From an uncultured Methanosarcinales archaeon (GTDB lineage Archaea > Nanobdellota > Nanobdellia > Woesearchaeales > CAYVYK01), in NCBI GenBank assembly GCA_964455675.1, contig CAYVYK010000007.1, forward strand, positions 40,166 to 104,165: a stretch of 64,000 bases of DNA. The letters run 5' to 3'. Below the pieces are notes generated by a model. It saw only the letters and a list, made by a program, of their open reading frames with translations, did not search any database and was not told the DNA's origin. Shown one piece after another: positions 2,112 to 51,354 of this stretch; within the stretch, counting starts at the first letter, position 1; each line of letters starts with the position of its first letter. The translations under genes and the position numbers were made by a program.

Positions 2112-2235
2112 GACACTGCAAAGGAGCGTGTTCTATAAATACTTACTGCTAGAATTTTTCTATCACCCGGTGGTTGCTTTTGGTTGTGATCCTGATGACA
2201 ATTTTTTTAAAGGCGAGGCAAGTCTTCATATATAT

Positions 2236-2310
2236 ACGCCCCTGTAGCATACACAGCAACACACTGCTGGTCGCTACATGTGCTCCGCTTCGCTACGCCC
2301 CTGTAGCATA
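2236..2310 (+). repeat. 16-17 nt direct repeat acgcccctgtagcata (2236-2251 and 2295-2310) flanking an imperfect hairpin (2244-2277)
   Basis: Exact repeat read in the sequence; the second copy forms the 5' end of the tRNA-like element. A TATA-like atatatata sits at 2227-2235. Confidence 0.6.
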
Positions 2311-2617: not shown

Positions 2618-3401
2618 GCATTCAAGATTATCACTAGAGGATATAAAATTTGTGCGGTGACTGCGCCTACCTATAACCGCTAATTCACGCTAAAACCACC
2701 CCCGGCGTACACCGAAGAGGATCATAGCACAGCATCTTCCCCTTGTTCTCGCCATCGATGATCTAGCGCGGTCTGAACCGGCAAGTTCACCAAACGCATA
2801 CTCCCACCTCCCATGTAAAAAGTAAGCACACGATTATAATACCCTTATCAACATGGAATCTGTACATCAGATGCATAAGGGTTTTAACGGGTACAACGGG
2901 CAGGCGGAGTACATTACCAATGTGTTCTCTGTGCTTTACGTCGGTGATTTAAGGATAGTATCCGCGCTGATGTGTATCATTTATAAATAAATAAAGAGTT
3001 ATATCTACTAGCAAGTAGTGTATTAATACAAACAAAGGCATCACTAGTGGTGTTCATAATCACCACATTTGATTAAATCGTTTTGAAGACTATCAATACC
3101 ATACTACATAACAACCAGCCACACCACGAATCTTTACGCGTGCTCAACCATTGAGCCAAAAACCTTTGGCGGGTCATGCGCAAGGATCAACCCTTCGCCA
3201 TCATCGCACGGCATCTGTGGACTATCACATGACGATGTGCGGGATGAGAAACACTATGGAGGAGCCGGAATACGGGAACAAACGCGTATTTCGATGGTGA
3301 AACGGACACCATAAGACGTAGCGAAAGCTCTTTCTTGGAAATTTCCCTCGTTGGGAACAAATATTCTCACTATTCGGCGCGGCCGAGAAAGGTAGGATTC
3401 C

Positions 3402-5098: not shown

Positions 5099-6166
5099 AT
5101 GCCCAAGATGGAGATCACATCACTCCTTGACGCGTGCATCAGGATGGACGCGTCAGACATCCACATCTCACCCGGGAAAGCACCGTGCCTTCGTCTGCAC
5201 GGCGAGATCACACCCCTCGAAACGATACCTGTCACAGAGGAGATCGCCGTCCAGCTCATGAAGGCGATTACGCCGGAGCGACATCAACAAGAGCTCATGG
5301 AAGAGGGGACAACTGAGTTCGGTTTCGACTATACTGAGGCAGCGCGCAGATTTCGCTGCTCGATTTACAAGACACGTCAGGGAACGTGCATGGTCCTGCG
5401 CCTCGTGCCAAAGGACATCCTCACATGCCAGGAACTTGGGCTTCCGCCCAAGGTTTCTGAGATCGTACTCAGCAAGGCGCGAGGCATCTTCTTTGTCACC
5501 GGACCCACGGGCTCGGGCAAGTCCACGACGCTTGCGGCGCTCATCCACCTAATCAATTCCACGCAAGCGTGCAAGATTGTGACGTTCGAGGATCCGATCG
5601 AATACGTGCACACACACCGCAGGGCGATCATCGAGCAGCGAGAAGTGGGAACACACCTAGTCGGGTACATCGACGGCATCCATAGGGTGCTGCGACAGGA
5701 TCCGAACGTCATCCTTCTCGGAGAACTGCGCAACCTCGATACGATGGAGGCTGCACTGCGCGCTGCCGAGACAGGCCACCTCGTGTTCGCGACGCTGCAT
5801 ACGAGGGGTTGTTCGAGCGCGATCAACAGAGTCATCGATGCGTTCCCAGAGATCCAGCAGAACCAAATCAAGACGCAACTCGCCATGTCGCTCCTTGGCG
5901 TGCTCAGCCAGATCCTCGTCCCCCGAAAAGGGCCAGGACGCGTCGCCGCGTTCGAATTCATGTACACGGACAACGGCATCCGAAGCATGATCATGCAGGA
6001 CAAGCCCGTGCAGATCGACAGCCACATCCGCACGCACACAGGTAAGGGCATGATGCTCATGGATGATCATCTCTTCCGGATGGTTGAGGCGAAAGTCATC
6101 ACGAGGGAAACCGCGATCGAATACGCGCGGAACACTGCCGAAATGGAGGAACGGCTCAGTCGGTAG
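5099..6166 (+). CDS. pilT: PilT/PilU-family type IV pilus retraction-type ATPase
   Basis: 355 aa. Walker A GPTGSGKST, Walker B ILLGEL, His box FATLHT, and C-terminal GIRSMIMQDKPVQIDS resembling the PilT AIRNLIRE motif. SD ggaaggaga 9 nt upstream. GC about 58%. Confidence 0.85.
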   Translation: MPKMEITSLLDACIRMDASDIHISPGKAPCLRLHGEITPLETIPVTEEIAVQLMKAITPERHQQELMEEGTTEFGFDYTEAARRFRCSIYKTRQGTCMVLRLVPKDILTCQELGLPPKVSEIVLSKARGIFFVTGPTGSGKSTTLAALIHLINSTQACKIVTFEDPIEYVHTHRRAIIEQREVGTHLVGYIDGIHRVLRQDPNVILLGELRNLDTMEAALRAAETGHLVFATLHTRGCSSAINRVIDAFPEIQQNQIKTQLAMSLLGVLSQILVPRKGPGRVAAFEFMYTDNGIRSMIMQDKPVQIDSHIRTHTGKGMMLMDDHLFRMVEAKVITRETAIEYARNTAEMEERLSR

Positions 6167-22538: not shown

Positions 22539-23840
22539 ATGATCATGGACCTCACTACACCACGTACGGGAGACAGAGTAGCAATAACCACCTTTGATGA
22601 AAGACTTGAGGGTATGCTCATGCCACGACCAGAACTCCTCCCAACAGGGTTTACCGTTCTCAAACTCGACAACGGATACAATATCGGAATCCAGGATTCC
22701 AAGATACGGAACGTGGAGATTATCCGAAAGAGAGTAGTTGCAACTCCGCGAATCCACACATCAGAACACAACCCAAAACTGCCCACCGTCGCGATGTTTA
22801 GTACAGGAGGTACAATCGCCTCGCGCATCGATTATGCTACAGGAGGGGTCGCAGCTGACTACTCAAGTGAAGAACTCCTCGACCTCGTACCGGGCCTTCG
22901 AAAAATTGCTAACATTCAGACAACAAGCATCATGAACGCCATGAGCGAGGATATGACACCAGAGCACTGGAAACAGATTGCACAATCAATCTTACCAGCG
23001 CTCAAGAATCCCAAGATCAGCGGAATTGTGATCACACACGGAACGGATACCATGCATTACACAAGCGCCGCGCTCTCATTCTTCATCAAGAACCTTAACA
23101 AACCAGTGATAATAACAGGATCACAACGCAGCATCGACCGCGGAAGCAGCGATGCATTCCTCAACGTCTATTGCAGTGTGACAGCCGCTGCACAATGGGA
23201 CGGAGCTGAAGTCGCCATCTGCATGCATACGAACATCAACGACAACACTTGCGACCTCCACCGCGGGACCAAGGTTAGGAAAATGCATACCTCACGCAGG
23301 GACGCGTTTAAAACAGTCAATGATACCCCGCTCGCACGTATTGATGACGCTGGAGAGATAAAAGTACTCAATCAAGAGTATTCCAGAAGACGGGAACTGT
23401 CGCCAGAACTTCTTGCCGCATTCGAAGAGAAGACAGCGCTCCTCCAAGTGTATCCAGGCATGGACCCTCTCCTCATAACTACACTTGCTGACCATGGATA
23501 TCGAGGGATAGTACTCTCAGCAACAGCTTTGGGCCACATCTGCACCAGCGGAAAGACAAACCTCCTTCCCGCCATCGAGCACGCCCAGAAGAAAGGAGCG
23601 CATATCATTATTGCTTCACAAACACTGTATGGCAGAACGCATCCTTACGTTTATACTAACCTACGTAAACTGTCCATCGGGCGAGGCTGCCTATTCGCGG
23701 ATGACATGCTCCCGGAAGTCGCATACGTGAAACTTGGTTGGCTGCTTGGAAGGAAGCTTACCCGAGAAGAAGTAAGTTTGCAGCTCACCACAAATATTGC
23801 GCATGAGATCAACCACCGACATCAGCCATGCATGTTCTAA
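22539..23840 (+). CDS. gatD: Glu-tRNA(Gln) amidotransferase subunit D
   Basis: 433 aa. N-terminal GatD domain plus asparaginase-like domain (FSTGGTIAS, HGTDTM). Followed by gatE. Confidence 0.85.
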   Translation: MIMDLTTPRTGDRVAITTFDERLEGMLMPRPELLPTGFTVLKLDNGYNIGIQDSKIRNVEIIRKRVVATPRIHTSEHNPKLPTVAMFSTGGTIASRIDYATGGVAADYSSEELLDLVPGLRKIANIQTTSIMNAMSEDMTPEHWKQIAQSILPALKNPKISGIVITHGTDTMHYTSAALSFFIKNLNKPVIITGSQRSIDRGSSDAFLNVYCSVTAAAQWDGAEVAICMHTNINDNTCDLHRGTKVRKMHTSRRDAFKTVNDTPLARIDDAGEIKVLNQEYSRRRELSPELLAAFEEKTALLQVYPGMDPLLITTLADHGYRGIVLSATALGHICTSGKTNLLPAIEHAQKKGAHIIIASQTLYGRTHPYVYTNLRKLSIGRGCLFADDMLPEVAYVKLGWLLGRKLTREEVSLQLTTNIAHEINHRHQPCMF

Positions 23841-23857
23841 ATACCGAATACGAGAAA

Positions 23858-24670
23858 CTAATTCCTCACATTCTCAAAGGGAGGAGTACCAAGATATTGC
23901 CGGACTCTCTCTTCGGTGCGCTTCGCAAAGATGTTGTCCTTCCGATTAAGTCCAGTGCCCTTCAATGGAAGCTTATCCGCGTGATAGAATTCAATCCCCT
24001 TGCGGTGCAACTCAAACCGATACGTTGCCAAGTCATCAAAAGAGGAGAAATAAACTTGCGAAAAATCATCGTGATAGTGCGGATTTGACCGGATCACAAG
24101 ACTATCTTTCTCCTTTAAGAAAAAATATCGCGCACCTCTTCGGAGCTGGAGCATGAGGTTATCGGCGGGAACCCTTGTCCTTAGCTCATGATCAACAAGC
24201 TCACCGAGAACAAGAGGGCAGTTGCCAAAATTATATATCGAATGCGCAAAGCCGCCAGGCACGACCATCTTGTCCCCAGCTTTTGCGATAATCAATTGAC
24301 ACTTCTTGTCTCCTTGAATGAGCATCCCGCACAATCCATAATACACTTGGTATATCTCGGGAAAATTCTGGAAATGCCCTAAAGTCTTGTTAAACTCGGA
24401 ACCGAGAAGCCGCTTATCAAACACAAAAACATTGTGATAGATTGTAGACTCGGTATCCTTCCTTTGTACGAGATCCTGATAGCATACATACGGAACAGCT
24501 GGAGCACATACCCCTCGATCGGCAAGCACATACCGCATGTCCAAGATGTCCCTCCGCAGCTCAGCACGCCACTTCCACAATCCATTATCAAGAACAAGAG
24601 AATCCTCCTCCAGCTCCAAGGGAATACCAGAGTATTTCTGCAGAGAAACCATACTCCCAAGAGAGCCCAT
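23858..24670 (-). CDS. cupin-fold protein of unknown function
   Basis: 270 aa ORF on the opposite strand between gatD and gatE. Motif KMVVPGGFAHSIYNFG is cupin-like. Confidence 0.4.
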   Translation of the reverse strand: MGSLGSMVSLQKYSGIPLELEEDSLVLDNGLWKWRAELRRDILDMRYVLADRGVCAPAVPYVCYQDLVQRKDTESTIYHNVFVFDKRLLGSEFNKTLGHFQNFPEIYQVYYGLCGMLIQGDKKCQLIIAKAGDKMVVPGGFAHSIYNFGNCPLVLGELVDHELRTRVPADNLMLQLRRGARYFFLKEKDSLVIRSNPHYHDDFSQVYFSSFDDLATYRFELHRKGIEFYHADKLPLKGTGLNRKDNIFAKRTEERVRQYLGTPPFENVRN

Positions 24671-24725
24671 ATTTTATTTAAAGGTTGCCGAAAGCTTATT
24701 AAGCAGAGATTTCATTCTCGACTCA

Positions 24726-26147
24726 GTGGTATTTGACTATAAAGAACTGGGATTCAAGTGCGGACTTGAAATTCATCAACAGCTCGAGGGTCTAAAACTA
24801 TTCTGCAACTGCAAGACACTCAATTCGGCTGAGGGAACAGAGAACAAAGCACAACGAAGACTCCAAGCAGTAGCGGGAGAGATGGGGGACATTGATATTG
24901 CAGTAAGCCATGAGTTATCCAAAGAGCGCAAATTCTTCTACGAGAGCTCATCTGCGGACACCTGCATCATGGAATACGATGAGGAACCGCCACACTCCAT
25001 GAATAGAGAAGCGGTGAAGACATGCCTACAACTTTGCAAGCTCATGAACTGCACAATCGTGGACGAGATCCACACAATGAGAAAGGCAGTTATTGATGGG
25101 AGCAACGTGACAGGATTTCAGAGAACCGCGCTCGTCGGAAGGAACGGATGGATCGAGACAAGCCAGGGGCGCGTCGGCATCGCCACCGTACTCCTTGAAG
25201 AAGAGGCAGCACAAAAAATCAAGCAAGCAAAAAAATATACCAAGTACCGGCTTGACCGCCTCGGGATGGGCATGATCGAAATCGCAACGCAAGCAGAGAT
25301 CAAAGATCCTGATCATGCAAAAGAGACAGCAGAAAGAATTGGGCTGATGTGCAGAAGCCTTCCAAGCGTGAAGCGAGGCATCGGAACCATCCGGCAGGAT
25401 GTCAATGTCTCGATCAGCAAGGGAGCGCGCGTCGAAATCAAGGGATTCCAGGATCTACGGAGCATACCAAAGGTAATCGACAACGAAATAGCCCGACAGC
25501 TTGACCTCATCACGAAAGGCAAAGCAGTACCAAAAGAAGTACGAAAGGCAGAGTCCGATTTCTCAACAAGTTTCCTTCGCCCCATGCCAGGAGCTGCACG
25601 ACTTTATCCCGAAACTGACGTGCTCCCCTTCGTCCCCCAAAAGGAAAGCATTGAGGTGCCCGAGACCATTGAAGATGCAGGAAAGCGCATCAAAGCACGC
25701 GGCATAGATCAAGAGCTTGCCAAACAGATAGCAAAAAAAGGTCGCACTGACTTCTTCGAGAAGGTCATTACCGACCACCCAACACTCAATCCTGCCTTCG
25801 TCGCAGAAACCATCATCTCACTTCCGAAGGAAATACGCCGCAAACACAATGTGGATGTTGAGACCCTTAGCGAGGAGCAATGGATGACAATCTTTAGGCA
25901 CCTTGCCAGTGGAACACTTTCAAAAACAGTATTGTCCGATGCGCTTGTTGACCTTTGCAAGGGAACTTTTGACATAAAGAAATACCAGAGCGTGAGCGAT
26001 GAAGATATTGAACGAGAAATAAAAAAGAGTATTGCGGAAAACCCGACTATCACAGATGGCGCTCTCATGGGCAGAATCATGGGCGCATTTAAAGGAAGAG
26101 CTGATGGAAAGAGAGTAAATGAGCTCGTAAGGAAACTGAAGAGTTAG
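24726..26147 (+). CDS. gatE: Glu-tRNA(Gln) amidotransferase subunit E (short form)
   Basis: Track ORF starts at 24537 but would overlap the divergent cupin gene by 134 nt. GTG 24726 gives the typical N-terminus VVFDYKELGFKCGLEIHQQL. C-terminal YqeY/GatB-like tail. About 473 aa, versus about 620 aa for a typical GatE. Confidence 0.8.
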   Translation: MVFDYKELGFKCGLEIHQQLEGLKLFCNCKTLNSAEGTENKAQRRLQAVAGEMGDIDIAVSHELSKERKFFYESSSADTCIMEYDEEPPHSMNREAVKTCLQLCKLMNCTIVDEIHTMRKAVIDGSNVTGFQRTALVGRNGWIETSQGRVGIATVLLEEEAAQKIKQAKKYTKYRLDRLGMGMIEIATQAEIKDPDHAKETAERIGLMCRSLPSVKRGIGTIRQDVNVSISKGARVEIKGFQDLRSIPKVIDNEIARQLDLITKGKAVPKEVRKAESDFSTSFLRPMPGAARLYPETDVLPFVPQKESIEVPETIEDAGKRIKARGIDQELAKQIAKKGRTDFFEKVITDHPTLNPAFVAETIISLPKEIRRKHNVDVETLSEEQWMTIFRHLASGTLSKTVLSDALVDLCKGTFDIKKYQSVSDEDIEREIKKSIAENPTITDGALMGRIMGAFKGRADGKRVNELVRKLKS

Positions 26148-26851: not shown

Positions 26852-27620
26852 GATTCATCTCACCAATGCGAACAAGCTTGGATTTAGGAATCAACCTAGC
26901 CATCTCTAGCGACGCACTTGGATTCAGAACCCAGTCTCTACCTCCAGTAATGAGGAGCACTGGCATCTCCAAAGAATCAAGCATACCTGTCACGTCATAA
27001 TCAAACAACGAAATCGTGTGGTAAGCGTAGGAATCAAGCCCGGCGTTCTGAAGATCATAAAAGAACAAGAAGAGTTCAGGAGTCTTTTCATGCTTTGCAT
27101 AATCAACATACCGAGAAAGAACTCGATGGAATGGTTTTCCGACGATTGCACAGAATCCTAGCAGCGACTCTGCGATCAATCGAGGAGCTCGCGGTATCAC
27201 AAAGTGATTCAACGGCGACGTGTGGCTCGAACTTACGAGCACCATCCCGAGCGGCTTTTTTCTCGAGTGCAACGCATGACCAAGAGCGATCATACCACCT
27301 GATGAAAGTCCACAGACAATGAATTTTGAAACTCGCTCCTTTGCCAGAACCGCATCAACATCCTCATAGTAGCGCTCCATCGAAAATGAACGCTGAGCCT
27401 GAACAGTGCGGGATCTGCCATGACCCCTCGCATCAATGAGCAAAGAGCGATAACCCATGGCGGCGCAACGCTTCGCAACCGGGACCCAAGATGTCATGTT
27501 ACCACCGAGGCCATGAAGGAACACAAGCCATGGCTTACTGGAATATTTTTCAGGCAGGAGCTTCTCGTAATATATCGAAGAAAGATCCTTACTTGTCACG
27601 AATTCCTGCCTTCTCTCCAT
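26763..27620 (-). CDS. alpha/beta hydrolase fold protein
   Basis: About 285 aa. LVFLHGLGGN oxyanion region, GLSSGG nucleophile elbow (GxSxG), HxG near the C-terminus. Confidence 0.7.
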   Translation of the reverse strand: MERRQEFVTSKDLSSIYYEKLLPEKYSSKPWLVFLHGLGGNMTSWVPVAKRCAAMGYRSLLIDARGHGRSRTVQAQRSFSMERYYEDVDAVLAKERVSKFIVCGLSSGGMIALGHALHSRKKPLGMVLVSSSHTSPLNHFVIPRAPRLIAESLLGFCAIVGKPFHRVLSRYVDYAKHEKTPELFLFFYDLQNAGLDSYAYHTISLFDYDVTGMLDSLEMPVLLITGGRDWVLNPSASLEMARLIPKSKLVRIGEMNHEGVFKKPEEVFDVIKGFLSSHFSNHTSA

Positions 27621-27724
27621 GATGATCACAAAAAAAAGCGCACCTGGGGGGATTTTCGTAACTTTTCGAACCCCCGACCTACAGCTTAGGAGGCTGCCGC
27701 GCTATTTGCCCTGCCCGAAAGCAT
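27619..27724 (-). tRNA. tRNA-Arg(CCU) candidate with two putative non-canonical introns (D-loop about 19 nt, T-loop about 12 nt)
   Basis: On the minus strand: acceptor GCACCTG/CAGGTGC (7/7 pairs), TA, D stem GCGC..GCGC, anticodon arm GCAGC-CTCCTAA-GCTGT, variable AGGTC, T arm GGGGG-TTCGAA..-CCCCC, discriminator G, then a T8 run. Mature length 75 nt after removing the two insertions. Confidence 0.5.
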
Positions 27725-27814
27725 CCAGGCTGCGCTACAGGTGCACTCTTCCCATGAATTCTTGGAGCTTTTATAAAGTTTGATGTTTTACGAATGAGAT
27801 TGATGAGGGTACTC

Positions 27815-30058
27815 TCAGAATCCAGAAATGTTACCCGTCTGGCTTAAAATTGTTCCGGCAATCAGATTGAACAGTATCATGATCACCCCGGTCGTAATCA
27901 CATAAAAGACCGTACAACGGATCAAGTTTTTTCCTAGCAAATAGCGCTCGCTGATGCGGTCAGGACCGTTATCAATCCCATTCATCAGGATAGTGAGAAT
28001 GTACACGATCTGCACAACATAAATTCCGACAACAATCTGAAAGAAAAATGTGGGAATACCATCACCACCACCAATAAGAGAAGCACTCGCAAACCCCCCA
28101 AAACCTGCGGACGAACCAGAATCGCCGCCAATCTGGCTTATCATCTTTGCCTGATTTGACAAGAGCCCAAGGATGTTTGTGATCATAGACGTGATACCAA
28201 CTACAACTCCAGAGATGATTGGCGTGAGGAAATTAATTTGCGACTGCATGGAGCTCACAACATCCTCAAGAATGTCCTTTAAACGCTCATTCACAAGGTG
28301 GATCTCCTTGATGTAGCGAGAGACATTCATCACAGCCTGCGCAGCAATCGCTGGACCTTTCTTCACACCCTGGACGAGCACCTCCATGGAGCTCTCAATT
28401 AGGTTTGAAGGGAAATACGCAAGCGCACCATTCCTTGAACTGAAGATCGCCTCATGGACACTAAGACCCAGGCGGCGGATATTATTGTCCACAATCGCGA
28501 AGAATCTTCCCGATTCCGTGCCCTGCATGACATCTGATACTCGCCCAAAGGCAATCTCCGCAGGTATGCGGTCACCAAGACGGTTACCGAGCTGGAATAG
28601 GGCGGAGGCAAACTCCTGCTCAAGTTTCTTCGTTTTCTCACGAATATCGATCACGTTCTCCGAACGCATCTTGTAGTACACACCTAAACCCAAGCCAAAC
28701 GCCAGTGTCACGCATAAGCTTAAAAGAGCAGCACCGAGGCCAAACGGACCAACCTTATCGTCACGAGTGGTCTCCTCAAGACCTGCACGGTATTCCAGCA
28801 GGCAGAACTGCTGCTTGCACGCACTGATCTTCTCAAACGCCTGAGCGTTTGCCGCAGAAAATGTGATACCAAAATCAAAATCAGGAGCAACAAGATGGAT
28901 CAGCAAAGGAGAGAGACCAAGCAAGAGCAATATGACGAATACAGCCCAACCAACAGAGGCAGGTGACATCGTCCTCTTCTTCCCAAAAAAGTTGAACTTG
29001 TACTCGCGCTCTTTTACGACAGCAGAGCTCTCCGAGATATCCGTGCTGCCATACCCTGTTGGCCTTGTCGCAAGAATATTCTTTCCCATGTAGAACACAA
29101 CGAGTGGAAGCAGAACGTTATAGAGCATGGCAATATGATACCAGCGAATGCCACCCATAAAACTCACCATGAGCGGAAGCATGACAAGACCAAGGATTGG
29201 CAGTACGACTCCAAGCATGTTCAAGGTGGAAATCGGGGACTTGAGATTATGCGCAAAATGCAGCATCTTCTCGTATGTTTCCTCAAGAATTATCTCAAGA
29301 GACTTGTCAAGCAACGCAAGCCTTCGCTCCTCAGCAGACTCATAGAGCGATGAAATAATGAGATGGAATGACTCTAAAAACTCTGGATTGTCCTTGCGCC
29401 ACGTCTCAAGATAGGTATCAATCGCGTCCTTTACCGTATCATACTTTTGCGCCTCAACGTCCCAGAGAATCTTACGAAAGTCAAGACTTAAGGGCGGAGC
29501 CATGTGTTGAGAGGCAAACTCAATCGCGAGCTCAAGGTTTGAGGTGTGCCGCATATACGTGACAAGATAAAAAATGCAAACAACCATCTGATTGGAAGCC
29601 TTCATCCGCCAACCATTCGCCATATACTCAGGAAGCTTTTGCAGAGGGTAGAGTAGGATTACCGCGAAAAGAAGCGCAAACATGCTAAAGAAGAGCGTCG
29701 TCTTATCTAGGATAAGGGCCGGAATCAAGTATCCGAGAAGCCCTCCGAAGAACGCGATCATGATCGGCGCAAGATACGCAAAACTTATCGCGCCAGAGGG
29801 AGTGATGTCGAGATGACAAATATTGATATTCTCCTGCAATCGCTCCGCCTGCTTTGGATCTGGCTTAATCCCGGCGATCTTCTCGCTCCATGCGCAAAGC
29901 TTCTCATAGATGGAGAGATTCTTTGGCATGAACTCCCGCTTGAAAATCTGATACTCAGAACTGTACACCGGCCTAACCGTCTCCTTCTCACCCGAAAGGT
30001 CCTTCTTTAGCTGAGACTTATACTTTCGAGCAATCTCCTCATACGATGCGTTTGCCAT
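27815..30058 (-). CDS. FlaJ/TadC/PilC-like polytopic membrane platform protein (enlarged)
   Basis: 747 aa. Alternating cytoplasmic helical domains and TM clusters. Immediately downstream of (2-nt gap) the secretion ATPase. Confidence 0.55.
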   Translation of the reverse strand: MANASYEEIARKYKSQLKKDLSGEKETVRPVYSSEYQIFKREFMPKNLSIYEKLCAWSEKIAGIKPDPKQAERLQENINICHLDITPSGAISFAYLAPIMIAFFGGLLGYLIPALILDKTTLFFSMFALLFAVILLYPLQKLPEYMANGWRMKASNQMVVCIFYLVTYMRHTSNLELAIEFASQHMAPPLSLDFRKILWDVEAQKYDTVKDAIDTYLETWRKDNPEFLESFHLIISSLYESAEERRLALLDKSLEIILEETYEKMLHFAHNLKSPISTLNMLGVVLPILGLVMLPLMVSFMGGIRWYHIAMLYNVLLPLVVFYMGKNILATRPTGYGSTDISESSAVVKEREYKFNFFGKKRTMSPASVGWAVFVILLLLGLSPLLIHLVAPDFDFGITFSAANAQAFEKISACKQQFCLLEYRAGLEETTRDDKVGPFGLGAALLSLCVTLAFGLGLGVYYKMRSENVIDIREKTKKLEQEFASALFQLGNRLGDRIPAEIAFGRVSDVMQGTESGRFFAIVDNNIRRLGLSVHEAIFSSRNGALAYFPSNLIESSMEVLVQGVKKGPAIAAQAVMNVSRYIKEIHLVNERLKDILEDVVSSMQSQINFLTPIISGVVVGITSMITNILGLLSNQAKMISQIGGDSGSSAGFGGFASASLIGGGDGIPTFFFQIVVGIYVVQIVYILTILMNGIDNGPDRISERYLLGKNLIRCTVFYVITTGVIMILFNLIAGTILSQTGNISGF

Positions 30059-30060
30059 AT

Positions 30061-32343
30061 CTATTGTGACTCAGTCATCCGAATCTTCTTAACCTGGCGC
30101 GAAAACCAAGAGTCCCACTCTTCATAGATGCGACGGGAGTCAAGAGCGCCAACCTCCTCCCTCACTTGGTCCGAGATGCGGTGGAACTGATCATTTGCCT
30201 GCACGATAAACGCGGCCTCCATTAACTCAGGCATGTTCGTTGAATCTGCAACTTCCACTATCCGCTGCTTCATGTTCGCGCGAAGCATGATATTATCCCA
30301 CACCGCATCCCACTTCCCTGCCCATTCCCGAACGTTACCCGCGATCGACTTGAGGATGTCACTTTCGCCCTGGATGAAATCCTTCGTAGGCTCAAGCTTG
30401 TCAATCAGGGGATTGTACTTCATAAGGTCACCAAAGCCACCCTCACGAAGAGGATCATCCACCCAGAACTTTCGCACCTCGGTAACCTGCGTGACCCGAC
30501 GGAAACGATGCATGCCATCGGCACTCTTGATCGGATTTGCGACAATGATAATATCAGTCGCCTTGAAACTCGTGCGGGGAACCTTAAGATCATTCACAAC
30601 ACGATCGAATACACCATAGGGCGAATCACCGTGGATCGTACCCGCAACAACGTTCGCAAGCGCGCCAACACGCATCGCTTCATAGAGAGCAGTAGCCTCT
30701 TTGCTGCGAACCTCGCCAACGATAAGGCAAGAATCACCAAGGCGCAAGGTCGTGCGAATCCCGGTCTCGGCGTCAACCTCAGACGTTGCAGCACCGATAG
30801 CGGAACTCACCTTCATGGGCTGAATGTTATAGCCGAGCGCGCGCATCGAGCCAACAGGAAGCTCAAGCGTGTCCTCAATCGTGATGATACGATACTTGCG
30901 CATAATCTCAATCAAGAGCGCGCTCAATAAAGAGCTCTTACCCGCAGAGCGAGTACCTGCAACAAGCATCGTCCTTGAGCCGTCAATAAGGAAACTCATC
31001 AGCCCTGCGGAAAGTGGGGAGATCATTCCCTGCTTGATGAACAAAGGAAGCGTCCAAGGACGGTCACGATGACGCCTGAAAGCATACGCTAGACCTGAGG
31101 GGTTGAGCGGGGGAGAGATGACTGCGATACGCGCCTTTGATCCAGGAAGCTCAAGTTCAGTGTCAAGAATGGGATTTGCCTCATCCAAGGGGCGGCCAGA
31201 GATCAAACGCAGCTTTGTCGCCCATGAATCGGACTCGTTTGGCGTCGGATAAATGTTGGTGCGACAATCCTCAAAATCCTGATGAACGATAAATATGGGA
31301 ATCTGGCCCATGGGAGAATTAATCGTAATATCCTGAACCTTTTCGTCCTGTAGTAGTACCTCAACAAGCCCAAAACCAATCGTGTACCGTACAAGAATCT
31401 GCGTCAACTCATCCCAATCCTTTTCCTTTAGATGCACGCCCTTGAAGTCAGATAGCTCGCCAAGAAGGTCACGACCAACATTTGAGAACACCTGACGCAT
31501 ACGTTCAGGATCGATAAATTCGGCTCGCTTTGGCTTATGATCGGCAAGGATGTTTCGTGCCATATCAAGAAGCTCATACTTATCTTCACTTAAGCGAAAC
31601 TCTGGAGGCATCATGTGATAGAGGTACTGTACCGTCTCTGGAATACTGAAGATGGTCACTTCAGTCGAACCAACCTCATAGCTCTCAAGCTCCTCACCGT
31701 CAGATGGATAGTTCGCCATGAGCTTTGTGTACATGAAGTCAGGCTTAATCGTCGGCGCAAACAATTTCCGATAGATCTCGCGATCCCCGATGTGATAGTC
31801 AGAGAGATACGGCTTAGCCATAATGACAAGCTTTGTCTTGTCCAGCATGAGAAGAATGTAATTCAGCAGTTTCACCCAACGCTCCAAATGCTCCTTTCGC
31901 GATTTTTGCTCCTCGACCTCATAGTTGATCTTCACATGACGGTAGATCCGCTTGAGCTCGACGTACGCAGAAATCGGATCTCCCTTCAACCTACTGAACA
32001 CGATGTGCTGCAGCTGAGTGTATGTGGAGCTATCCTTTGATAGCCCCCGCATCTGGAATGAGAGAAGCCGCTGCCTCACAATATTTGCGTAGATACGCGC
32101 GATCTCAGCGACCATCTGCGTCTGATCATAATCATACTCAAAGTCTCGCTTCTGAGCAAACACGATTTTTGTCGCGGCACCAGCCTCCGCGAGAATCTCC
32201 ACCGTCTTTGACATACATAAGGAGTCGTCCTCAAGCGATGGAGTCTTCGTGTACGCCTCAAGGTCGATGCGAAGAATGATCTCCTGCCCTTCGCGGACCA
32301 CTTCATACTCAAAAGGCTTCTTACTTGACGTGGTCCCTGCCAT
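30061..32343 (-). CDS. type II/IV secretion-system ATPase (FlaI/TadA/VirB11/GspE family), enlarged N-terminal region
   Basis: 760 aa. Walker A LVAGTRSAGKSSLLSAL at about aa 450, Asp box, Walker B IIVGEVR, His-box-like region. Confidence 0.85.
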   Translation of the reverse strand: MAGTTSSKKPFEYEVVREGQEIILRIDLEAYTKTPSLEDDSLCMSKTVEILAEAGAATKIVFAQKRDFEYDYDQTQMVAEIARIYANIVRQRLLSFQMRGLSKDSSTYTQLQHIVFSRLKGDPISAYVELKRIYRHVKINYEVEEQKSRKEHLERWVKLLNYILLMLDKTKLVIMAKPYLSDYHIGDREIYRKLFAPTIKPDFMYTKLMANYPSDGEELESYEVGSTEVTIFSIPETVQYLYHMMPPEFRLSEDKYELLDMARNILADHKPKRAEFIDPERMRQVFSNVGRDLLGELSDFKGVHLKEKDWDELTQILVRYTIGFGLVEVLLQDEKVQDITINSPMGQIPIFIVHQDFEDCRTNIYPTPNESDSWATKLRLISGRPLDEANPILDTELELPGSKARIAVISPPLNPSGLAYAFRRHRDRPWTLPLFIKQGMISPLSAGLMSFLIDGSRTMLVAGTRSAGKSSLLSALLIEIMRKYRIITIEDTLELPVGSMRALGYNIQPMKVSSAIGAATSEVDAETGIRTTLRLGDSCLIVGEVRSKEATALYEAMRVGALANVVAGTIHGDSPYGVFDRVVNDLKVPRTSFKATDIIIVANPIKSADGMHRFRRVTQVTEVRKFWVDDPLREGGFGDLMKYNPLIDKLEPTKDFIQGESDILKSIAGNVREWAGKWDAVWDNIMLRANMKQRIVEVADSTNMPELMEAAFIVQANDQFHRISDQVREEVGALDSRRIYEEWDSWFSRQVKKIRMTESQ

Positions 32344-45848: not shown

Positions 45849-47123
45849 GTGTTCCGAGGAAGACGAGGCCAGGAAGGAACCAGTGGAAAGACAGCCAGCC
45901 TCATCGCCATCATACTCGCGTGTATTATCCTCTACATTCTCTTCCTTCCGCCGGACGAAAGGGAGGAGCTTCTCAAGGAGAACACGACGGATAGTGATGA
46001 TGACGATGACATTAGGTACAAGAGCGAGCAGATACTCCTGCGCGAATACATTGGATCTCTAGAATACTTCAACCAGAGGGTGTGCGACTATGATGACACA
46101 AATAGGTATTGCGAGCATCCCGTTCCGAATATCAATCTGTTTGAGACCAGGTCAGCAATCGAGCTAGGAAAAATGAACGCTGTTTATGTGAAAAGCGGAA
46201 CATTCGAGAAAGAACACAAAACCATGACATTTGCCATCGAGGACCTTGAGAAGACAAGCAACGTCCAACTCAGCTTTGTTGCAGAACAGCGGGAAGGCCG
46301 ACTCGTCATCAAGCTCAACGAAGAGGTAATATTCGAGAATGAGATTGACAAAAGCAATCCAGAACCTATTGCGCTACCGGATGACTTGCTCCAGACCACG
46401 AACAAGCTCGAATTTGCAGTATCAGGAGTTGGAGGAGCCTTCTGGGACACGAACGAATACCTGCTATCCAATCTCAAGGTCATAGGAGAAGTGCAAAACA
46501 ACGACCGCCAAACAGGAACGTACTCATTCTCCATAAATCCAACTGAAAATGAAAACCTCGAGCGTGCATGGCTTGAGTTCTACCCTGTCTGCAATCCACG
46601 AAACGTTGGAGTGCTCTACGGCTATGTGAATGGCAATCGCGTGTTTAGCGCAGTACCAGAGTGCGAAGTACGCAACAAGCAGGAGATCAGGATCGGATAC
46701 CTTGACTCAGGAAGCAACGACATCAGTTTCACGACAGAAAAAGGATCATACCTCATTGAAAAGATACAAGTCCTGACGGAGATTAAGGAAGTAGACAAGG
46801 CAACGTTCTACTTCGAACTAAACTCAACGGAATATGACAATGTACTCGACGGAGAGCGACAGGTCAATATCACATTCTTTTTTGTTCATGACGATGACTA
46901 TGTTGATGATATCGAATTCAAGCTCAACGTGAACGGCCACCTCGCATACATCGACAACAGGTATCTTGAAGGCCGCAGCCGAAACGGAGAGAGGATAACA
47001 CGAGGGTATTACTCACGAATCATCGATGAATGGGTAGAAGAAGGAAACAACTACATCCAAATCGAACCCAAAAGCACACTCGAGATCAAAGAAATGCGAG
47101 TCTCTATCTATGATGTCGATTAA
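45849..47123 (+). CDS. N-terminally membrane-anchored extracellular protein, hypothetical (operon gene 1)
   Basis: 424 aa. GTG start with SD aggtga. TM helix ASLIAIILACIILYILF, then acidic DSDDDDD linker and an about 380-aa extracellular domain. TATA tttatata at 45795-45802. Confidence 0.5.
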   Translation: MFRGRRGQEGTSGKTASLIAIILACIILYILFLPPDEREELLKENTTDSDDDDDIRYKSEQILLREYIGSLEYFNQRVCDYDDTNRYCEHPVPNINLFETRSAIELGKMNAVYVKSGTFEKEHKTMTFAIEDLEKTSNVQLSFVAEQREGRLVIKLNEEVIFENEIDKSNPEPIALPDDLLQTTNKLEFAVSGVGGAFWDTNEYLLSNLKVIGEVQNNDRQTGTYSFSINPTENENLERAWLEFYPVCNPRNVGVLYGYVNGNRVFSAVPECEVRNKQEIRIGYLDSGSNDISFTTEKGSYLIEKIQVLTEIKEVDKATFYFELNSTEYDNVLDGERQVNITFFFVHDDDYVDDIEFKLNVNGHLAYIDNRYLEGRSRNGERITRGYYSRIIDEWVEEGNNYIQIEPKSTLEIKEMRVSIYDVD

Positions 47124-47125
47124 CC

Positions 47126-49108
47126 ATGGCACGGGACAGCAGCGCGATTACGCCAAGACTCAGAAAAGAAGTAGATGAAAGACTTAGCAGAGCTCTTGGC
47201 AGACCAGCCCGTGAGGAAATAAACGTTGAAGTGCAGAGCCCAAAACCAGACCCGCGCGACGATGAATTACGGCGACGAGAAGCAGAAATCGCCAGACGAG
47301 AACAACAAATTCTTGATGAACAACGGAGGGTTCGGGACGACATCCGTGAAAGGGATATCGAAGCCAAGAGAACCCTCGATACGGCAGGCGATGCCCCACC
47401 AAAGAGAGGATTTTTAAGCAGAATTGGAGGCGCAGCAAATTGGACGGGAGGAGCGGCAAAGACCACCCTTCGAACAACCGTGAATGTCGCGCAAGGAACC
47501 ACGCAGGTCCTTTCTAAAAATTACACCGCACTCTTCATCGCGGCAATGCTTATCAACTTTGTCGACGGCCTCATGAACTATGGACGGCCGTACTGGAGAT
47601 TTTCCATGTACCTCCTCCTTGCCGTGCTCAGCTGGGCGTTTGTCATCAGGCATCCAGGGGACAATTTCAAGGGCCATCTCTTCACATTTGGTGAATCGCT
47701 TGTCATGGCAGCAGCAGCGTTCTTCTGGCCCCTCTTCTGGTTCCGGGTTGCAGGGTACACACCAATCGACATAGAAGTATTCCGCATACTCGTCAATATC
47801 TTCCCGTTCTATCTCATCTATATCTTCATGTCAAATGACCCGGATTGCAGAAAAAGCACATTCATCCGGATATTCAAATGGGTCTACTTCATCACAATCA
47901 TCCTCCTTATCGTCTCATTCTTCCCAGCACTCGCGGAAGCACGAACACTCCAAAACATCCCATTCCTCCATCCAGCCGAGAATGCTGATGTGTACGGCAC
48001 ATACTCACGATACATCAGCCTCGTCTCCAACGGATGGAACTGGATCAAGGGGACAACCAAAACAACCATCTCAGATATCGACAAGTTCTGGGAGTTACAG
48101 CAAAAAGCGGCACTTGGAGACCTCTATATAGGTGATGTTGACAATGAAGCTGACAAACCGCTGGGCGTCGTACTCAGGGATGTCAAGATGAGCCAGAAGA
48201 TATACACCACATTTGATGACGTGGAGATCCAAGGCCAAATAGACTCAATCAGCCTTGACAGAGATGTCGCGGTAATCATTGGCTGCATTGCAGACAAAGG
48301 CAGCAAGACGCCGATCGAAGCAGTAAGCTACCCCGCAGGAAAGGAACTCGAACTATCAAGAAGCGAAAGCGCAAGTGTCAACTGCATATTCCCCGCAGGA
48401 ACGCTCCCCAGCGGATCGCACAGACTCGCGATGACAAGCAGATTCGGATTCACAACATCAGCGTACATGCCAGCATACTTCATCGATAAAAACCGGGCAG
48501 ACGCCCTGCGCGAGGAAGGAGACAACATCTACAAGCAGCTTCGCATCACAGAACCACTTTCCGACAACAAGATATCAAACGGAGAGCCAAAAACCGTCAC
48601 TACGAGCGGACCTGTCAATATTGGCATGGGAATACCAAACGTGCTTACTGAAGTTGATATCCAGAAAGACCAGAAAGTGTTCAACCTCAAGATCACATTC
48701 ACCAACTCCTGGGGCGGAGGAGAATTCCCTGGAAAGATCAAGAATGTCCGAGAATGGTACATCCAAGTACCAAAGGAAATGGAGATCGCGGCGGACACGA
48801 CAGGAAACACGAAATGTTCGGGCAAGAAATTCATCGCCACAAGATGTCCATCGGGTGATAAGAGATGTGACGATGTGAATTACAAGACCTATAAGCTTGA
48901 CCCAAGTGTCAAACTCACAGAAATCGACTTTCTTGATAGTATTGCATGCACGATCGTCATTCATGGCAACAGCTTCAATGATCTTCTCGGCACAGGACCC
49001 CTCGCCGCAAAGCAGTTCCGCACATGGATGACGTACGATTATGAATACGAGCGCGGCAACCTGAACATCAACATCAAAAAGGAGGAAACAAACGATGCCG
49101 TCACGTAA
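47126..49108 (+). CDS. membrane protein with charged coiled-coil cytoplasmic N-terminus, about 5 TM helices and about 380-aa extracellular domain, hypothetical (operon gene 2)
   Basis: 660 aa. ATG 2 nt after the upstream stop. RRREAEIARREQQILDEQRRVRDDIRERD, then a hydrophobic cluster at aa 170-330. Confidence 0.5.
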   Translation: MARDSSAITPRLRKEVDERLSRALGRPAREEINVEVQSPKPDPRDDELRRREAEIARREQQILDEQRRVRDDIRERDIEAKRTLDTAGDAPPKRGFLSRIGGAANWTGGAAKTTLRTTVNVAQGTTQVLSKNYTALFIAAMLINFVDGLMNYGRPYWRFSMYLLLAVLSWAFVIRHPGDNFKGHLFTFGESLVMAAAAFFWPLFWFRVAGYTPIDIEVFRILVNIFPFYLIYIFMSNDPDCRKSTFIRIFKWVYFITIILLIVSFFPALAEARTLQNIPFLHPAENADVYGTYSRYISLVSNGWNWIKGTTKTTISDIDKFWELQQKAALGDLYIGDVDNEADKPLGVVLRDVKMSQKIYTTFDDVEIQGQIDSISLDRDVAVIIGCIADKGSKTPIEAVSYPAGKELELSRSESASVNCIFPAGTLPSGSHRLAMTSRFGFTTSAYMPAYFIDKNRADALREEGDNIYKQLRITEPLSDNKISNGEPKTVTTSGPVNIGMGIPNVLTEVDIQKDQKVFNLKITFTNSWGGGEFPGKIKNVREWYIQVPKEMEIAADTTGNTKCSGKKFIATRCPSGDKRCDDVNYKTYKLDPSVKLTEIDFLDSIACTIVIHGNSFNDLLGTGPLAAKQFRTWMTYDYEYERGNLNINIKKEETNDAVT

Positions 49109-50195
49109 CACCCAGCTTATCTTCCTCGTAGTACTCACAATTCTCAGCGGGTGCGGATCAACAACCCGCACCGTCTATGACGAGAGTGTCCATACGGGAA
49201 CGAAGGGGCTCGAGATGACGTTCCTTAAGAACTATCCAGCAAACAGAATCGATGAACAAAGCGTTTTTGACATCGCATTTGAAATGGAAAATGCAGGAGC
49301 GAGCGACATCGAGGATGGCATGATTCAAATCATCGTTGACCCTCCGCTCTCATTCATCGGATGGGATTGGGGATCACTCACGACACAAGGACAGGACCCC
49401 TCAACACCGTTCTATCTTGAAGGACGATCAAAAAGCAACCTTGTCGGGGACAGGGGAATCGTCACCGCTCGCCTTCGATCAGCCGCGCTACCGCTGAATA
49501 CACAAATCATGCACCCAAAAATATTCATCAATACATGCTACGCATACGAAAGCATATTCAGCAAAGAAGTCTGCATTGACCCAAATCCCCTCCCAGGATC
49601 GATCGGAGAGGAGACATGCACGGTAAAAGATGTAACCAGTTCAGGACAGGGAGGGCCTGTAGGCGTGAGCAAGGTTGAAGTCCTCCTCTTTGATCCGAAC
49701 AACGGCGACCGGTTTTTAGGATACAGTGGTGAAAGCGACAGGTATACTGACGTCGGAACAGAGCTCGTACAGCCAGAGTTTAGGATCTACATCAAGAACT
49801 TCGATGACGGTAACGTCATCAACGCACAGCATGTAAGCCTTGCATGCGGCGAAGGAAGCGAAGGAATCGAGTTCAACAAGGTTGACGTTCAAGCATTCAT
49901 CTTTGACAATGAACTAGAATGCAGCGAGCCAACCGTCTACCTCTCGCGCGACGACAACAGCTATCTCTCATGCTGGCCGCGCGATGGCGTCAGGAGAAAA
50001 CAAAGCAGTTACTACGCCCCCCTCGTCGTCAAGATGCAGTATGGATACGTTGACTACATCTCAAAAAGCGTTGATGTACACAGAAAGTTCTACGAAGATG
50101 AAGATGATGAACCAATACGGCCAGTCGGTGAAGCAGACTACCATCCAGAGCCAACCATAAATGATCCAACATGGAATGTGGACAGCAACATTTAA
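49095..50195 (+). CDS. putative lipoprotein, paralog A (operon gene 3)
   Basis: 366 aa. SD aggagg. Signal plus lipobox-like LSGC. Shared motifs with the next two genes (GTKGLEMTFLKNYPA, CYAYESIFSKEVCIDPNPLPG, PLVVKMQYGYVDYISKSV). Confidence 0.55.
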   Translation: MPSRNTQLIFLVVLTILSGCGSTTRTVYDESVHTGTKGLEMTFLKNYPANRIDEQSVFDIAFEMENAGASDIEDGMIQIIVDPPLSFIGWDWGSLTTQGQDPSTPFYLEGRSKSNLVGDRGIVTARLRSAALPLNTQIMHPKIFINTCYAYESIFSKEVCIDPNPLPGSIGEETCTVKDVTSSGQGGPVGVSKVEVLLFDPNNGDRFLGYSGESDRYTDVGTELVQPEFRIYIKNFDDGNVINAQHVSLACGEGSEGIEFNKVDVQAFIFDNELECSEPTVYLSRDDNSYLSCWPRDGVRRKQSSYYAPLVVKMQYGYVDYISKSVDVHRKFYEDEDDEPIRPVGEADYHPEPTINDPTWNVDSNI

Positions 50196-50220
50196 TAACT
50201 TTGAAACGAAGGTGAAAACC

Positions 50221-51219: not shown

Positions 51220-51354
51220 GAATACGGCCTAGAAGACTTGTATTCTCACCAACAAATGGCATGAAGCACGCCTCATTTCCAAAAAGTTTAAATAAGTAGC
51301 CTACTCGGGGGTGAGGTATATCAGTATATATATTCATTGCACGGAGGAATCATC

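What the first reader, a model, noticed from the sequence alone, without database searches (positions are those of the whole stretch)
27619..27724. tRNA-Arg(CCU) with two candidate non-canonical introns (D-loop and T-loop)
Minus-strand cloverleaf with a perfect 7-bp acceptor stem, GCGC D stem, anticodon loop CTCCTAA and GGGGG/CCCCC T stem. It is interrupted by an about 19-nt insert in the D loop and an about 12-nt insert after TTCGAA in the T loop, and followed by a T8 terminator. Multiple short introns at non-canonical positions are characteristic of certain archaeal lineages and point to lineage affiliation and a relaxed-specificity splicing endonuclease.
Basis: seen in the sequence. Interest (0 to 1): 0.6.

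Follow-up and report, generated by a model that had tools for sequence, protein, structure and literature searches.

The report
Archaeal tRNA-Arg gene with two introns
This is a real arginine tRNA gene from a tiny DPANN (Woesearchaeota-like) archaeon, interrupted by two very short protein-spliced introns in unusual places; this kind of gene is known, but standard tRNA finders miss it.

Summary
The cloverleaf exists, but at 27744..27639 (minus strand), 20 nt from the reported interval. ARAGORN and Rfam do not call the unspliced gene. Removing 19 nt from the D loop (27724-27706) and 12 nt from the T loop (27664-27653) gives a 75-nt tRNA-Arg(CCU). It matches an uninterrupted Woesearchaeota tRNA-Arg(CCU) at 71/75 positions; the four differences are two compensatory acceptor pairs, and that orthologue scores 68 bits on Rfam tRNA.

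Both inserts sit in bulge-helix-bulge geometry that predicts exactly these junctions. The D-loop motif has the central and inner helices but a weak outer helix (HBh'-like). The T-loop motif has the T stem and central helix but no inner helix (hBH/BHL). The gene lies downstream of GatE, as in many DPANN MAGs. Relatives carry introns of 20-47 nt at the same two sites, with compensatory exon-intron changes. An independent assembly reproduces the promoter through exon 2, including the D-loop intron.

Close precedents are the ARMAN-2 tRNA-Cys 13-nt 59/60 intron and the Methanopyrus kandleri D-loop intron, and DPANN tRNA disruption has been reported. This is a new member of a known kind, of modest interest. 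Splicing itself and the endonuclease type remain untested.

The parts
27639..27744 (-). Whole pre-tRNA-Arg(CCU) coding region, 106 nt, from acceptor position 1 (27744) to discriminator G73 (27639). CCA is not encoded.
   Evidence: Sequence read. Span computed. The three exon blocks match the spliced query by BLAST.
27725..27744 (-). Exon 1 (pre-tRNA nt 1-20): acceptor 5' strand GCACCUG, U8 A9, D-stem 5' strand GCGC, and D-loop bases A14-G19 (AGCCUGG).
27706..27724 (-). Intron 1, 19 nt, AUGCUUUCGGGCAGGGCAA, between G19 and A20 of the D loop. In the BHB, exon GCCU pairs with intron GGGC (central helix). The bulges are GG|A and AA|A. The inner helix is UGCU/GGCA closed by a UUCG loop. The outer helix is only A14-U plus the D stem after a one-base bulge, so the motif is HBh'-like.
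   Evidence: BHB scan. Same site in L018, L002, L044, L077, L083, L085 and L091. Covariation. An identical sequence occurs in an independent Logan assembly.
27665..27705 (-). Exon 2 (pre-tRNA nt 40-80): A20 U20a A21, D-stem 3' strand, G26, anticodon arm (anticodon CCU at 27690-27688), variable loop AGGUC, T-stem 5' strand GGGGG, and T-loop bases 54-59 (UUCGAA).
   Evidence: (100% match over 41 nt).
27653..27664 (-). Intron 2, 12 nt, AAGUUACGAAAA, between positions 59 and 60 of the T loop. In the BHB, the T stem is the outer helix. Exon UUCG (54-57) pairs with intron CGAA (central helix). The 3' bulge is AA|U. The 5' site AA|A lies in an 8-nt hairpin loop and there is no inner helix, so this is the relaxed hBH / bulge-helix-loop type.
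   Evidence: The MFE fold of the T arm is exactly this structure. BHB scan. Same site in L020, L044, L053, L083 and L091. Covariation.
27639..27652 (-). Exon 3 (pre-tRNA nt 93-106): U60, T-stem 3' strand CCCCC, acceptor 3' strand CAGGUGC, discriminator G.
27769..27777 (-). TATA-like box TTTATAAAA, starting 33 nt upstream of tRNA position 1. This is the presumed archaeal promoter.
   Evidence: Sequence. A TATA-like element starting at -31 to -35 recurs in most orthologues.
27630..27637 (-). T8 run beginning one base after the discriminator. This is the presumed archaeal oligo-T terminator.
   Evidence: Sequence. T-rich runs follow most orthologues.

Best explanation
This is a functional tRNA-Arg(CCU) gene of a DPANN (Woesearchaeota/Nanoarchaeia-like) archaeon, interrupted by two short bulge-helix-bulge introns at non-canonical positions: 19 nt between G19 and A20 in the D loop, and 12 nt between positions 59 and 60 in the T loop. 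The likely pathway is as follows. Shown here: the sequence, the fold geometry, the conservation, and the identity of the spliced product. Inferred: all the enzymatic steps. RNA polymerase starts about 30 nt downstream of the TATA box and stops at the T8 run. In the precursor, D-loop bases 15-17a pair with the 3' end of intron 1, and T-loop bases 54-57 pair with the 3' end of intron 2. Each pairing forms a 4-bp helix flanked by 3-nt bulges. The tRNA splicing endonuclease (EndA) cuts after the second base of each bulge. An RtcB-type ligase joins the three exons. RNase P and RNase Z trim the ends and CCA is added. The motifs tie up G18/G19 and U54-G57, which are the partners of the D-loop/T-loop elbow, so the L-shape cannot form until both introns are removed. 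Each motif lacks one flanking helix. By published biochemistry, this calls for an endonuclease with broadened substrate specificity.
For: (1) In-silico removal of the two inserts gives a 75-nt tRNA-Arg(cct) by ARAGORN, and 1403 of 1432 positive deletion variants give Arg(cct). (2) A BHB scan finds, for each insert, one register with a full 4-bp central helix and 3-nt bulges, and that register restores canonical loop lengths. The T-arm BHB is the MFE fold. (3) The spliced product is identical at 71/75 positions to the uninterrupted gene in L066, and the differences are two compensatory acceptor pairs. That orthologue scores 68 bits on Rfam tRNA. (4) Synteny: tRNA-Arg(CCU) lies downstream of GatE on the opposite strand in many Woesearchaeota loci. 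(5) Introns occupy the same D-loop site in 7 other genes and the same T-loop site in 5 others, with lengths of 20-47 nt. (6) Covariation: in the D-loop BHB core, 97.1% of cells are paired against 24-39% when partners are slid, 8 of 13 pairs have compensatory changes, and 0/500 shuffles reach the observed score. In the T-loop core, 97.8% are paired, and UUCG/CGAA changes to UUCA/UGAA. (7) The whole-window unbiased scan finds only this locus. (8) Chance estimates for the BHBs are 5.6% and 0.4-1.3%. (9) Conserved TATA spacing and an oligo-T tail. (10) An independent assembly is identical through intron 1. (11) Precedents: the ARMAN-2 13-nt hBH intron at 59/60 was cleaved in vitro (PMC3239211), the M. 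kandleri D-loop HBh' intron is documented, and DPANN tRNA disruption has been reported (PMC5829648).
Against: There is no expression or splicing data. In the D arm, a competing hairpin (GCCUGGA/UUCGGGC, -15.0 kcal/mol) is more stable than the BHB conformer (-10.6 kcal/mol). The full BHB cloverleaf (-41.8) lies 3.2 kcal/mol above the MFE (-45.0). The outer helix of the D-loop motif is a single, invariant A-U pair plus the D stem, so it is not supported by covariation. The BHB core segments used for covariation were cut at BHB-defined boundaries. Those boundaries coincide with the junctions given independently by alignment to intron-less genes, but the pairing counts still lean somewhat towards the model. 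The T-loop set has only 5 distinct sequences. No EndA or RtcB gene was found in the window, so the enzyme type is unknown. The independent assembly stops before intron 2.
Confidence: 0.9

Rival explanations
1. It is a decaying tRNA pseudogene that happened to acquire two insertions and is not processed into a working tRNA.
For: ARAGORN and Rfam do not call it as it stands, even at E<=10. No expression data exist.
Against: All four stems are perfect. Exons are identical at positions 4-69 to an intact orthologue whose neighbouring GatE is only about 47% identical. The promoter and terminator are intact. Both insertions sit in BHB geometry that restores exact loop lengths. The same sites are occupied in relatives, with covariation. 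No other tRNA-Arg(CCU) is present in the window.
Confidence: 0.04
2. Only the T-loop insert is a standard EndA intron. The D-loop insert folds into the more stable competing hairpin and is removed by another route, needs a prior step, or is retained.
For: The competing hairpin is 4.4 kcal/mol more stable than the D-arm BHB conformer. The outer helix of the D-loop motif is minimal.
Against: In 8 genes, the D-loop site shows the strongest covariation of all, including all four inner-helix pairs and two exon-intron pairs. The BHB register gives exactly the D loop of the intron-less orthologue. A D-loop HBh' intron in M. kandleri is cleaved by EndA in vitro (PMC5829648). tRNAscan-SE authors note that some introns need sequential removal, which still involves EndA (PMC8450103).
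Confidence: 0.05
3. The inserts are kept in the mature RNA as expanded D and T loops, giving an atypical tRNA.
For: None beyond the absence of splicing data.
Against: The inserts disrupt the G18G19 / U54-C56 elbow contacts that are universally conserved. Orthologues vary freely between 0 and 47 nt at these sites while their exons stay constant. That pattern fits excised sequence, not functional loop expansions.
Confidence: 0.01

Closest known systems
ARMAN-2 (Ca. Micrarchaeum acidiphilum) pre-tRNA-Cys(GCA), 13-nt intron at 59/60 (Fujishima et al. 2011, PMC3239211)
   Same: Also a DPANN archaeon, with the same position (59/60), the same relaxed hBH / bulge-helix-loop motif built on the T stem, and almost the same length (13 vs 12 nt). 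Cleavage by that organism's EndA was shown in vitro.
   Different: It is a different isoacceptor and a different DPANN phylum. ARMAN-2 uses an epsilon2-type EndA, whereas Woesearchaeota are reported to carry alpha4 with an L3 insert (PMC5829648). The enzyme of this genome is unknown. Here the gene also has a second intron in the D loop.
Methanopyrus kandleri pre-tRNA-Glu(UUC) with a D-loop HBh' intron plus a canonical intron (Kaneta et al. 2018, PMC5829648)
   Same: A non-canonical intron in the D loop with a relaxed (HBh') motif in a multi-intron tRNA, removed by EndA in vitro.
   Different: It is a euryarchaeon with an (alpha-beta)2 EndA lacking the specific loop. Its second intron is canonical (37/38), whereas the window gene has no canonical intron.
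Multi-intron tRNA genes of Thermoproteales / Thaumarchaeota (reviewed in PMC4033280, PMC4090602; tRNAscan-SE 2.0, PMC8450103)
   Same: Up to three BHB introns per gene at non-canonical positions, relaxed motifs, and co-occurrence with broad-specificity EndA.
   Different: Those are a different superphylum (TACK vs DPANN). The published BHB covariance models were trained on Cren-, Eury- and Thaumarchaeota, not on DPANN introns.

Membership tests
tRNA (Rfam RF00005), isoacceptor Arg(CCU) | Canonical cloverleaf with conserved D- and T-loop residues in the mature sequence | tested here: met
   After removal of the two inserts, ARAGORN calls a 75-nt tRNA-Arg(cct). The 71/75-identical uninterrupted orthologue L066 scores 68 bits against a gathering threshold of 29. 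The unspliced gene itself is not called.
tRNA (Rfam RF00005), isoacceptor Arg(CCU) | Orthology with bona fide tRNA-Arg(CCU) genes (sequence and gene neighbourhood) | tested here: met
   The gene is downstream of GatE on the opposite strand, as in many Woesearchaeota loci. The exons are identical to L066 apart from two compensatory acceptor pairs.
tRNA (Rfam RF00005), isoacceptor Arg(CCU) | Transcribed, processed and aminoacylated | not testable with these tools
   Only the promoter-like TATA box (conserved at -31 to -35) and the T8 run speak to this.
Archaeal BHB (EndA-spliced) tRNA intron | 4-bp central helix flanked by two 3-nt bulges on opposite strands, with cleavage after the second bulge base yielding the exact mature sequence | tested here: met
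   D loop: GCCU/GGGC with bulges GG|A and AA|A. T loop: UUCG/CGAA with bulges AA|A and AA|U. The junctions restore AGCCUGGAUA and UUCGAAU.
Archaeal BHB (EndA-spliced) tRNA intron | Strict hBHBh' form: both the outer (h) and inner (h') helices are present | tested here: not met
   The D-loop motif has h' of 4 bp, but h is a single A-U plus the D stem after a 1-nt bulge. The T-loop motif has h of 5 bp (the T stem) but no h'. Both therefore belong to the relaxed sub-classes (HBh'-like and hBH/BHL), which are recognised members of the family (PMC3239211, PMC5829648).
Archaeal BHB (EndA-spliced) tRNA intron | Structure conserved by compensatory change among homologous introns | tested here: met
   8 sequences, 97.1% paired, 8/13 pairs compensatory, 0/500 shuffles; 5 sequences, 97.8% paired. 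Caveat: the segments were cut at BHB-defined boundaries.
Archaeal BHB (EndA-spliced) tRNA intron | Cleaved by the splicing endonuclease and ligated by RtcB, with the genome encoding both | not testable with these tools
   No tRNA_int_endo or RtcB domain was found among 30 window ORFs of 159-485 aa. The rest of the genome is not available.
Self-splicing group I / group II intron | Catalytic RNA core of hundreds of nucleotides | tested here: not met
   The inserts are 19 and 12 nt. No Rfam intron family hit in the region, even at E<=10.

The most novel reading that the evidence does not exclude
Across a whole DPANN order, the GatE-linked tRNA-Arg(CCU) has at least three recurrent intron 'slots' (19/20, 37/38, 59/60), filled or empty in different combinations. 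The window gene would then represent whittled-down minimal introns. Its two relaxed motifs would be cut by an alpha4-type EndA carrying only the DPANN 'L3' insert, which would give direct substrates for testing whether that insert confers broad specificity. Because the two motifs sequester both halves of the D/T elbow, splicing would also gate tRNA folding.
Probability: 0.2. Interest if true: 0.45.

Novelty: new member of a known kind. Interest (0 to 1): 0.3.

Why it matters
The value is mainly practical and comparative. ARAGORN and the Rfam tRNA model miss this gene and nearly all of its interrupted orthologues. tRNA complements of DPANN genomes will therefore look incomplete, and codon-usage or auxotrophy inferences drawn from them may be wrong. 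Kaneta et al. 2018 explicitly flagged undetected disrupted tRNAs in DPANN. The orthologue series assembled here gives a clean natural experiment on intron gain, loss and shrinkage: one syntenic gene carrying 0-3 introns at fixed sites, with lengths from 12 to more than 60 nt. It also supplies defined substrates (an HBh'-like D-loop motif and a 12-nt BHL T-loop motif) for testing the substrate range of DPANN splicing endonucleases. It does not reveal a new mechanism.

Tried and rejected
Direct detection failed. ARAGORN with or without canonical-intron mode and Rfam at gathering or E<=10 do not see the unspliced gene. Other BHB registers, including those using the competing D-arm hairpin, give wrong loop lengths or no valid tRNA. 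A strict exon-plus-gaps pattern found nothing in metagenomes; the relaxed 3'-half pattern worked. Exact-protein look-ups for the hydrolase (two start codons) and the FlaI-like ATPase found nothing. GatD and the 747-aa membrane protein were found only in short Logan contigs from SRR12133403/4, and those run accessions appear in no held paper. A search for EndA/RtcB in the window was negative. I tested whether the duplicated 5' end of tRNA-Thr marks another BHB intron, and no register fits. The classical surveys of intron positions and lengths (Marck & Grosjean 2003; Sugahara 2007) are not held, so I could not verify whether 12 nt is a record low. L090 and L064 have D-region insertions whose boundaries I could not resolve, and I left them out of the covariation sets.

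Full report
OBSERVATION. On the minus strand the window reads: TATA-like box TTTATAAAA (27777-27769); then, from 27744, GCACCUG UA GCGC [29-nt loop] GCGC G GCAGC CUCCUAA GCUGU AGGUC GGGGG [19-nt loop] CCCCC CAGGUGC G; then C and T8 (27637-27630). However, the gene spans 27744..27639, and the reported 27724..27619 is the same length shifted by 20 nt. Folding the literal interval is uninformative. ARAGORN finds only a tRNA-Thr(CGU) at 2297-2369 in the window. Rfam finds the same single tRNA at gathering threshold and nothing tRNA-like around the locus even at E<=10. As it stands, the gene is therefore invisible to standard tools.

IS IT A tRNA WITH INSERTS? I deleted 14-23 nt anywhere in the D loop together with 10-14 nt anywhere in the T loop. 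This gave 2403 distinct products. ARAGORN called 1432 of them as tRNA, 1403 of those as tRNA-Arg(cct). The product with 19 and 12 nt removed is a 75-nt cloverleaf with D loop AGCCUGGAUA and T loop UUCGAAU, and its MFE fold is the cloverleaf.

BHB GEOMETRY. In the archaeal bulge-helix-bulge motif, each strand reads 5'-helix(4 nt)-bulge(3 nt)-3', with cleavage after the second bulge base. This follows from established knowledge of the canonical 37/38 intron; the motif is described in PMC5829648 and PMC3239211. A scan of the precursor for this geometry gives one register for each insert that restores normal loop lengths.
- Intron 1 is pre-tRNA nt 21-39 (window 27724-27706), AUGCUUUCGGGCAGGGCAA. 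Exon GCCU pairs with intron GGGC, the bulges are GG|A and AA|A, and the inner helix UGCU/GGCA is closed by UUCG. The outer side is only A14-U followed by a bulged A21 and the D stem.
- Intron 2 is nt 81-92 (27664-27653), AAGUUACGAAAA. Exon UUCG (positions 54-57) pairs with intron CGAA, the 3' bulge is AA|U, and the 5-bp T stem is the outer helix. The 5' site AA|A lies in an 8-nt terminal loop and there is no inner helix.
The T-arm structure is the MFE fold of that arm. The D-arm BHB is not: a competing hairpin, GCCUGGA/UUCGGGC, is 4.4 kcal/mol more stable. The full BHB cloverleaf (-41.8) lies 3.2 kcal/mol above the MFE (-45.0). Shuffling the insert sequences and allowing any loop junction produces a comparable BHB in 5.6% of cases (T loop) and 0.4-1.3% (D loop), so the joint chance is roughly 10^-3 to 10^-4. 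As an unbiased control, I enumerated all BHB-compatible inserts, singly and in pairs, on both strands of the 64-kb window (about 180,000 spliced constructs) and ran ARAGORN on them. The only new tRNA spanning a junction was this one, with exactly the predicted intron pair. The remaining hits merely contained the intact tRNA-Thr.

HOST AND CONTEXT. The neighbours are GatD (22539-23840), GatE (24537-26147), a GT2 glycosyltransferase, an alpha/beta hydrolase that starts about 10-20 nt after the T8 run, an unannotatable 747-aa membrane protein, and a FlaI-like ATPase. GatDE marks the host as archaeal. All 80 best GatE relatives among species-representative genomes are DPANN MAGs labelled Woesearchaeota, Nanoarchaeia or Nanoarchaeota, plus some obviously mislabelled 'Methanosarcinales' TPA bins. 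The best identity is only 53%, so no close relative is in that collection. GC content is about 48% throughout the window.

COMPARATIVE EVIDENCE. A tRNA-Arg(CCU) lies downstream of GatE, on the opposite strand, in many of these loci. The gene in L066 is uninterrupted and matches my spliced product at 71/75 positions. The four differences are two compensatory base pairs in the acceptor stem. That orthologue scores 68 bits on the Rfam tRNA model. This fixes the intron boundaries independently of any BHB assumption. Five syntenic genes are intron-less (L066, L007, L016, L024, L013). The others carry insertions as follows:
- The same D-loop site (junction UGG^AUA): L018 42 nt, L002 22, L044 36, L077 46.
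- The same T-loop site (UUCRAA^U): L020 38, L044 31, L053 29.
- The canonical 37/38 site, and in L048 a site in the anticodon stem.
A metagenome scan with the shared 3' half added L083 and L091, which each have three introns at the same three sites, and L085, which has a 47-nt D-loop intron, along with several genes carrying only the canonical intron. I cut out the fixed-geometry BHB cores and counted pairs.
- D-loop motif (8 genes): 97.1% of cells are paired, against 24-39% when partners are slid by 1-3 columns. Eight of 13 pairs have changes on both sides, including two exon-intron pairs of the central helix (for example GCCU/GGGC, GCUU/AAGU, GUCU/GGAU) and all four inner-helix pairs. No shuffle out of 500 reaches the observed score.
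- T-loop motif (5 distinct sequences): 97.8% of cells are paired, and UUCG/CGAA changes to UUCA/UGAA.
One caveat applies. The cores were cut at BHB-defined boundaries, although these coincide with the alignment-defined junctions. A TATA-like element starting 31-35 nt upstream of position 1 recurs in most orthologues. An independent Logan assembly from run SRR12133404 is identical to the window from the upstream gene through the promoter, exon 1, intron 1 and exon 2, up to its contig end. Intron 1 is therefore not an artefact of one assembly. Intron 2 lies beyond that contig.

MECHANISM. Shown: the gene anatomy, the BHB-compatible folds, the exactness of the predicted product, and the conservation and covariation. 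Inferred from established archaeal tRNA biology: transcription from the TATA box to the oligo-T run, EndA cleavage in both bulges, RtcB ligation, end trimming and CCA addition. The two motifs hold G18/G19 (the 5' bulge of intron 1) and U54-G57 (the central helix of intron 2). I therefore infer that the D/T elbow cannot form before both introns are removed, and that recognition must be local to each BHB. Each motif lacks one flanking helix. The D loop is HBh'-like and the T loop is hBH/BHL. Published assays show that such relaxed motifs are cut efficiently only by endonucleases with broadened specificity (PMC5829648, PMC3239211). Kaneta et al. report that several DPANN lineages, with a Woesearchaeote among the genomes they analysed, carry alpha4 EndAs with an 'L3' insert, and that these show markedly more tRNA gene disruption (PMC5829648). 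I could not test this genome. Thirty window ORFs of plausible size show no EndA or RtcB domain.

COMPARISON WITH THE KNOWN. The closest precedent for intron 2 is the ARMAN-2 pre-tRNA-Cys 13-nt hBH intron at 59/60, which was cleaved in vitro (PMC3239211). For intron 1 it is the D-loop HBh' intron of M. kandleri pre-tRNA-Glu (PMC5829648). Multi-intron tRNA genes with up to three introns are well documented in Thermoproteales and Thaumarchaeota and are handled by tRNAscan-SE 2.0, whose BHB models were trained on Cren-, Eury- and Thaumarchaeota (PMC8450103, PMC4033280). The window gene meets the core BHB definition and fails only the strict hBHBh' sub-definition, which places it in the recognised relaxed classes. 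It is therefore a new member of a known kind.

RIVALS. A pseudogene is unlikely, given perfect stems, exons conserved against a very distant orthologue, an intact promoter and terminator, and BHB-exact inserts. Retention of the inserts in the mature tRNA is unlikely, because insert length varies from 0 to 47 nt among orthologues while the exons stay fixed. A non-EndA or step-dependent fate for the D-loop insert is possible because of the competing hairpin, but that site carries the strongest covariation.

VERDICT. Novelty is low and interest modest (0.3). The interest rests on the annotation blind spot (the Rfam tRNA model also misses almost all interrupted orthologues) and on the orthologue series as material for studying intron turnover and DPANN EndA specificity.

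Noticed in passing
window 2237-2252 and 2295-2310 (+), upstream of tRNA-Thr(CGU) at 2297-2369: The first 14 nt of tRNA-Thr plus the base or two before it (CGCCCCTGTAGCATA) are repeated 58 nt upstream. The upstream copy begins about 33 nt downstream of a TATA-like run (TTTTTTTAAA, about 2204-2213), which is the same promoter spacing as in the Arg(CCU) genes. No register of the 58-nt unit gives a BHB (central helix at most 3/4 pairs, no flanking helices). It is therefore not a splicing-type intron, and its origin is unexplained (a recombination or integration scar, or a long leader).
   Followed up: partly
L044 16450-16600 (-), L083 about 2070-2260 (+), L091 about 2670-2860 (+): Three orthologous tRNA-Arg(CCU) genes each carry three introns, at the same D-loop (19/20), canonical (37/38) and T-loop (59/60) sites. 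L048 has a 17-nt insertion in the anticodon stem, with a BHB of H=4 and h'=3. The Rfam tRNA model misses all of them (the L048 gene was not scanned).
   Followed up: partly
canonical introns of L083, L087/L089, L092, L093 (tRNA-Arg(CCU), 37/38 site): These roughly 60-nt canonical introns from different metagenome contigs share a conserved block, AAGAGAGTTAGCAGAG (TTATCAGAG in L093), and GATGAAGA/CTGA-like elements near their ends. This hints at a conserved function such as a C/D-box-like guide. No model was tested.
   Followed up: no
L077 and L085 D-loop introns: The 46- and 47-nt D-loop introns are clearly homologous in sequence (ATACT..AAATTCG..GGATT..GTAGG.(T/C)AA). This argues for vertical inheritance of the intron at this site. 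The window's 19-nt intron shares only the 3' end (GGGCAA), which is consistent with internal deletion.
   Followed up: partly
window 27620-27637 (-): The alpha/beta-hydrolase ORF (ATG at 27620, or GTG at 27629) starts 1-10 nt after the T8 run of the tRNA. There is no room for its own TATA box outside the tRNA gene, which suggests read-through co-transcription or a promoter embedded in the tRNA gene.
   Followed up: no
window 27815-30058 (-) and 30061-32343 (-): A 747-aa multi-pass membrane protein with no NCBIfam hit sits next to a 760-aa FlaI/TadA-like ATPase. This is probably a divergent FlaJ/TadC-like platform of a type IV pilus or archaellum-like system. A second T2SSE-family ATPase is at 5099-6166.
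   Followed up: no
window 27412-27462 (-): A weak match to the C/D-box sRNA family sR44 (15.5 bits, E=0.26, gathering threshold 45) lies inside the hydrolase ORF. It lacks a clear C box and is most likely chance.
   Followed up: no
window 45849-47123, 49095-52281, 59909-60865 (+): Several ORFs of 314-424 aa have no Pfam match at E<=0.001. They were not examined further.
   Followed up: no
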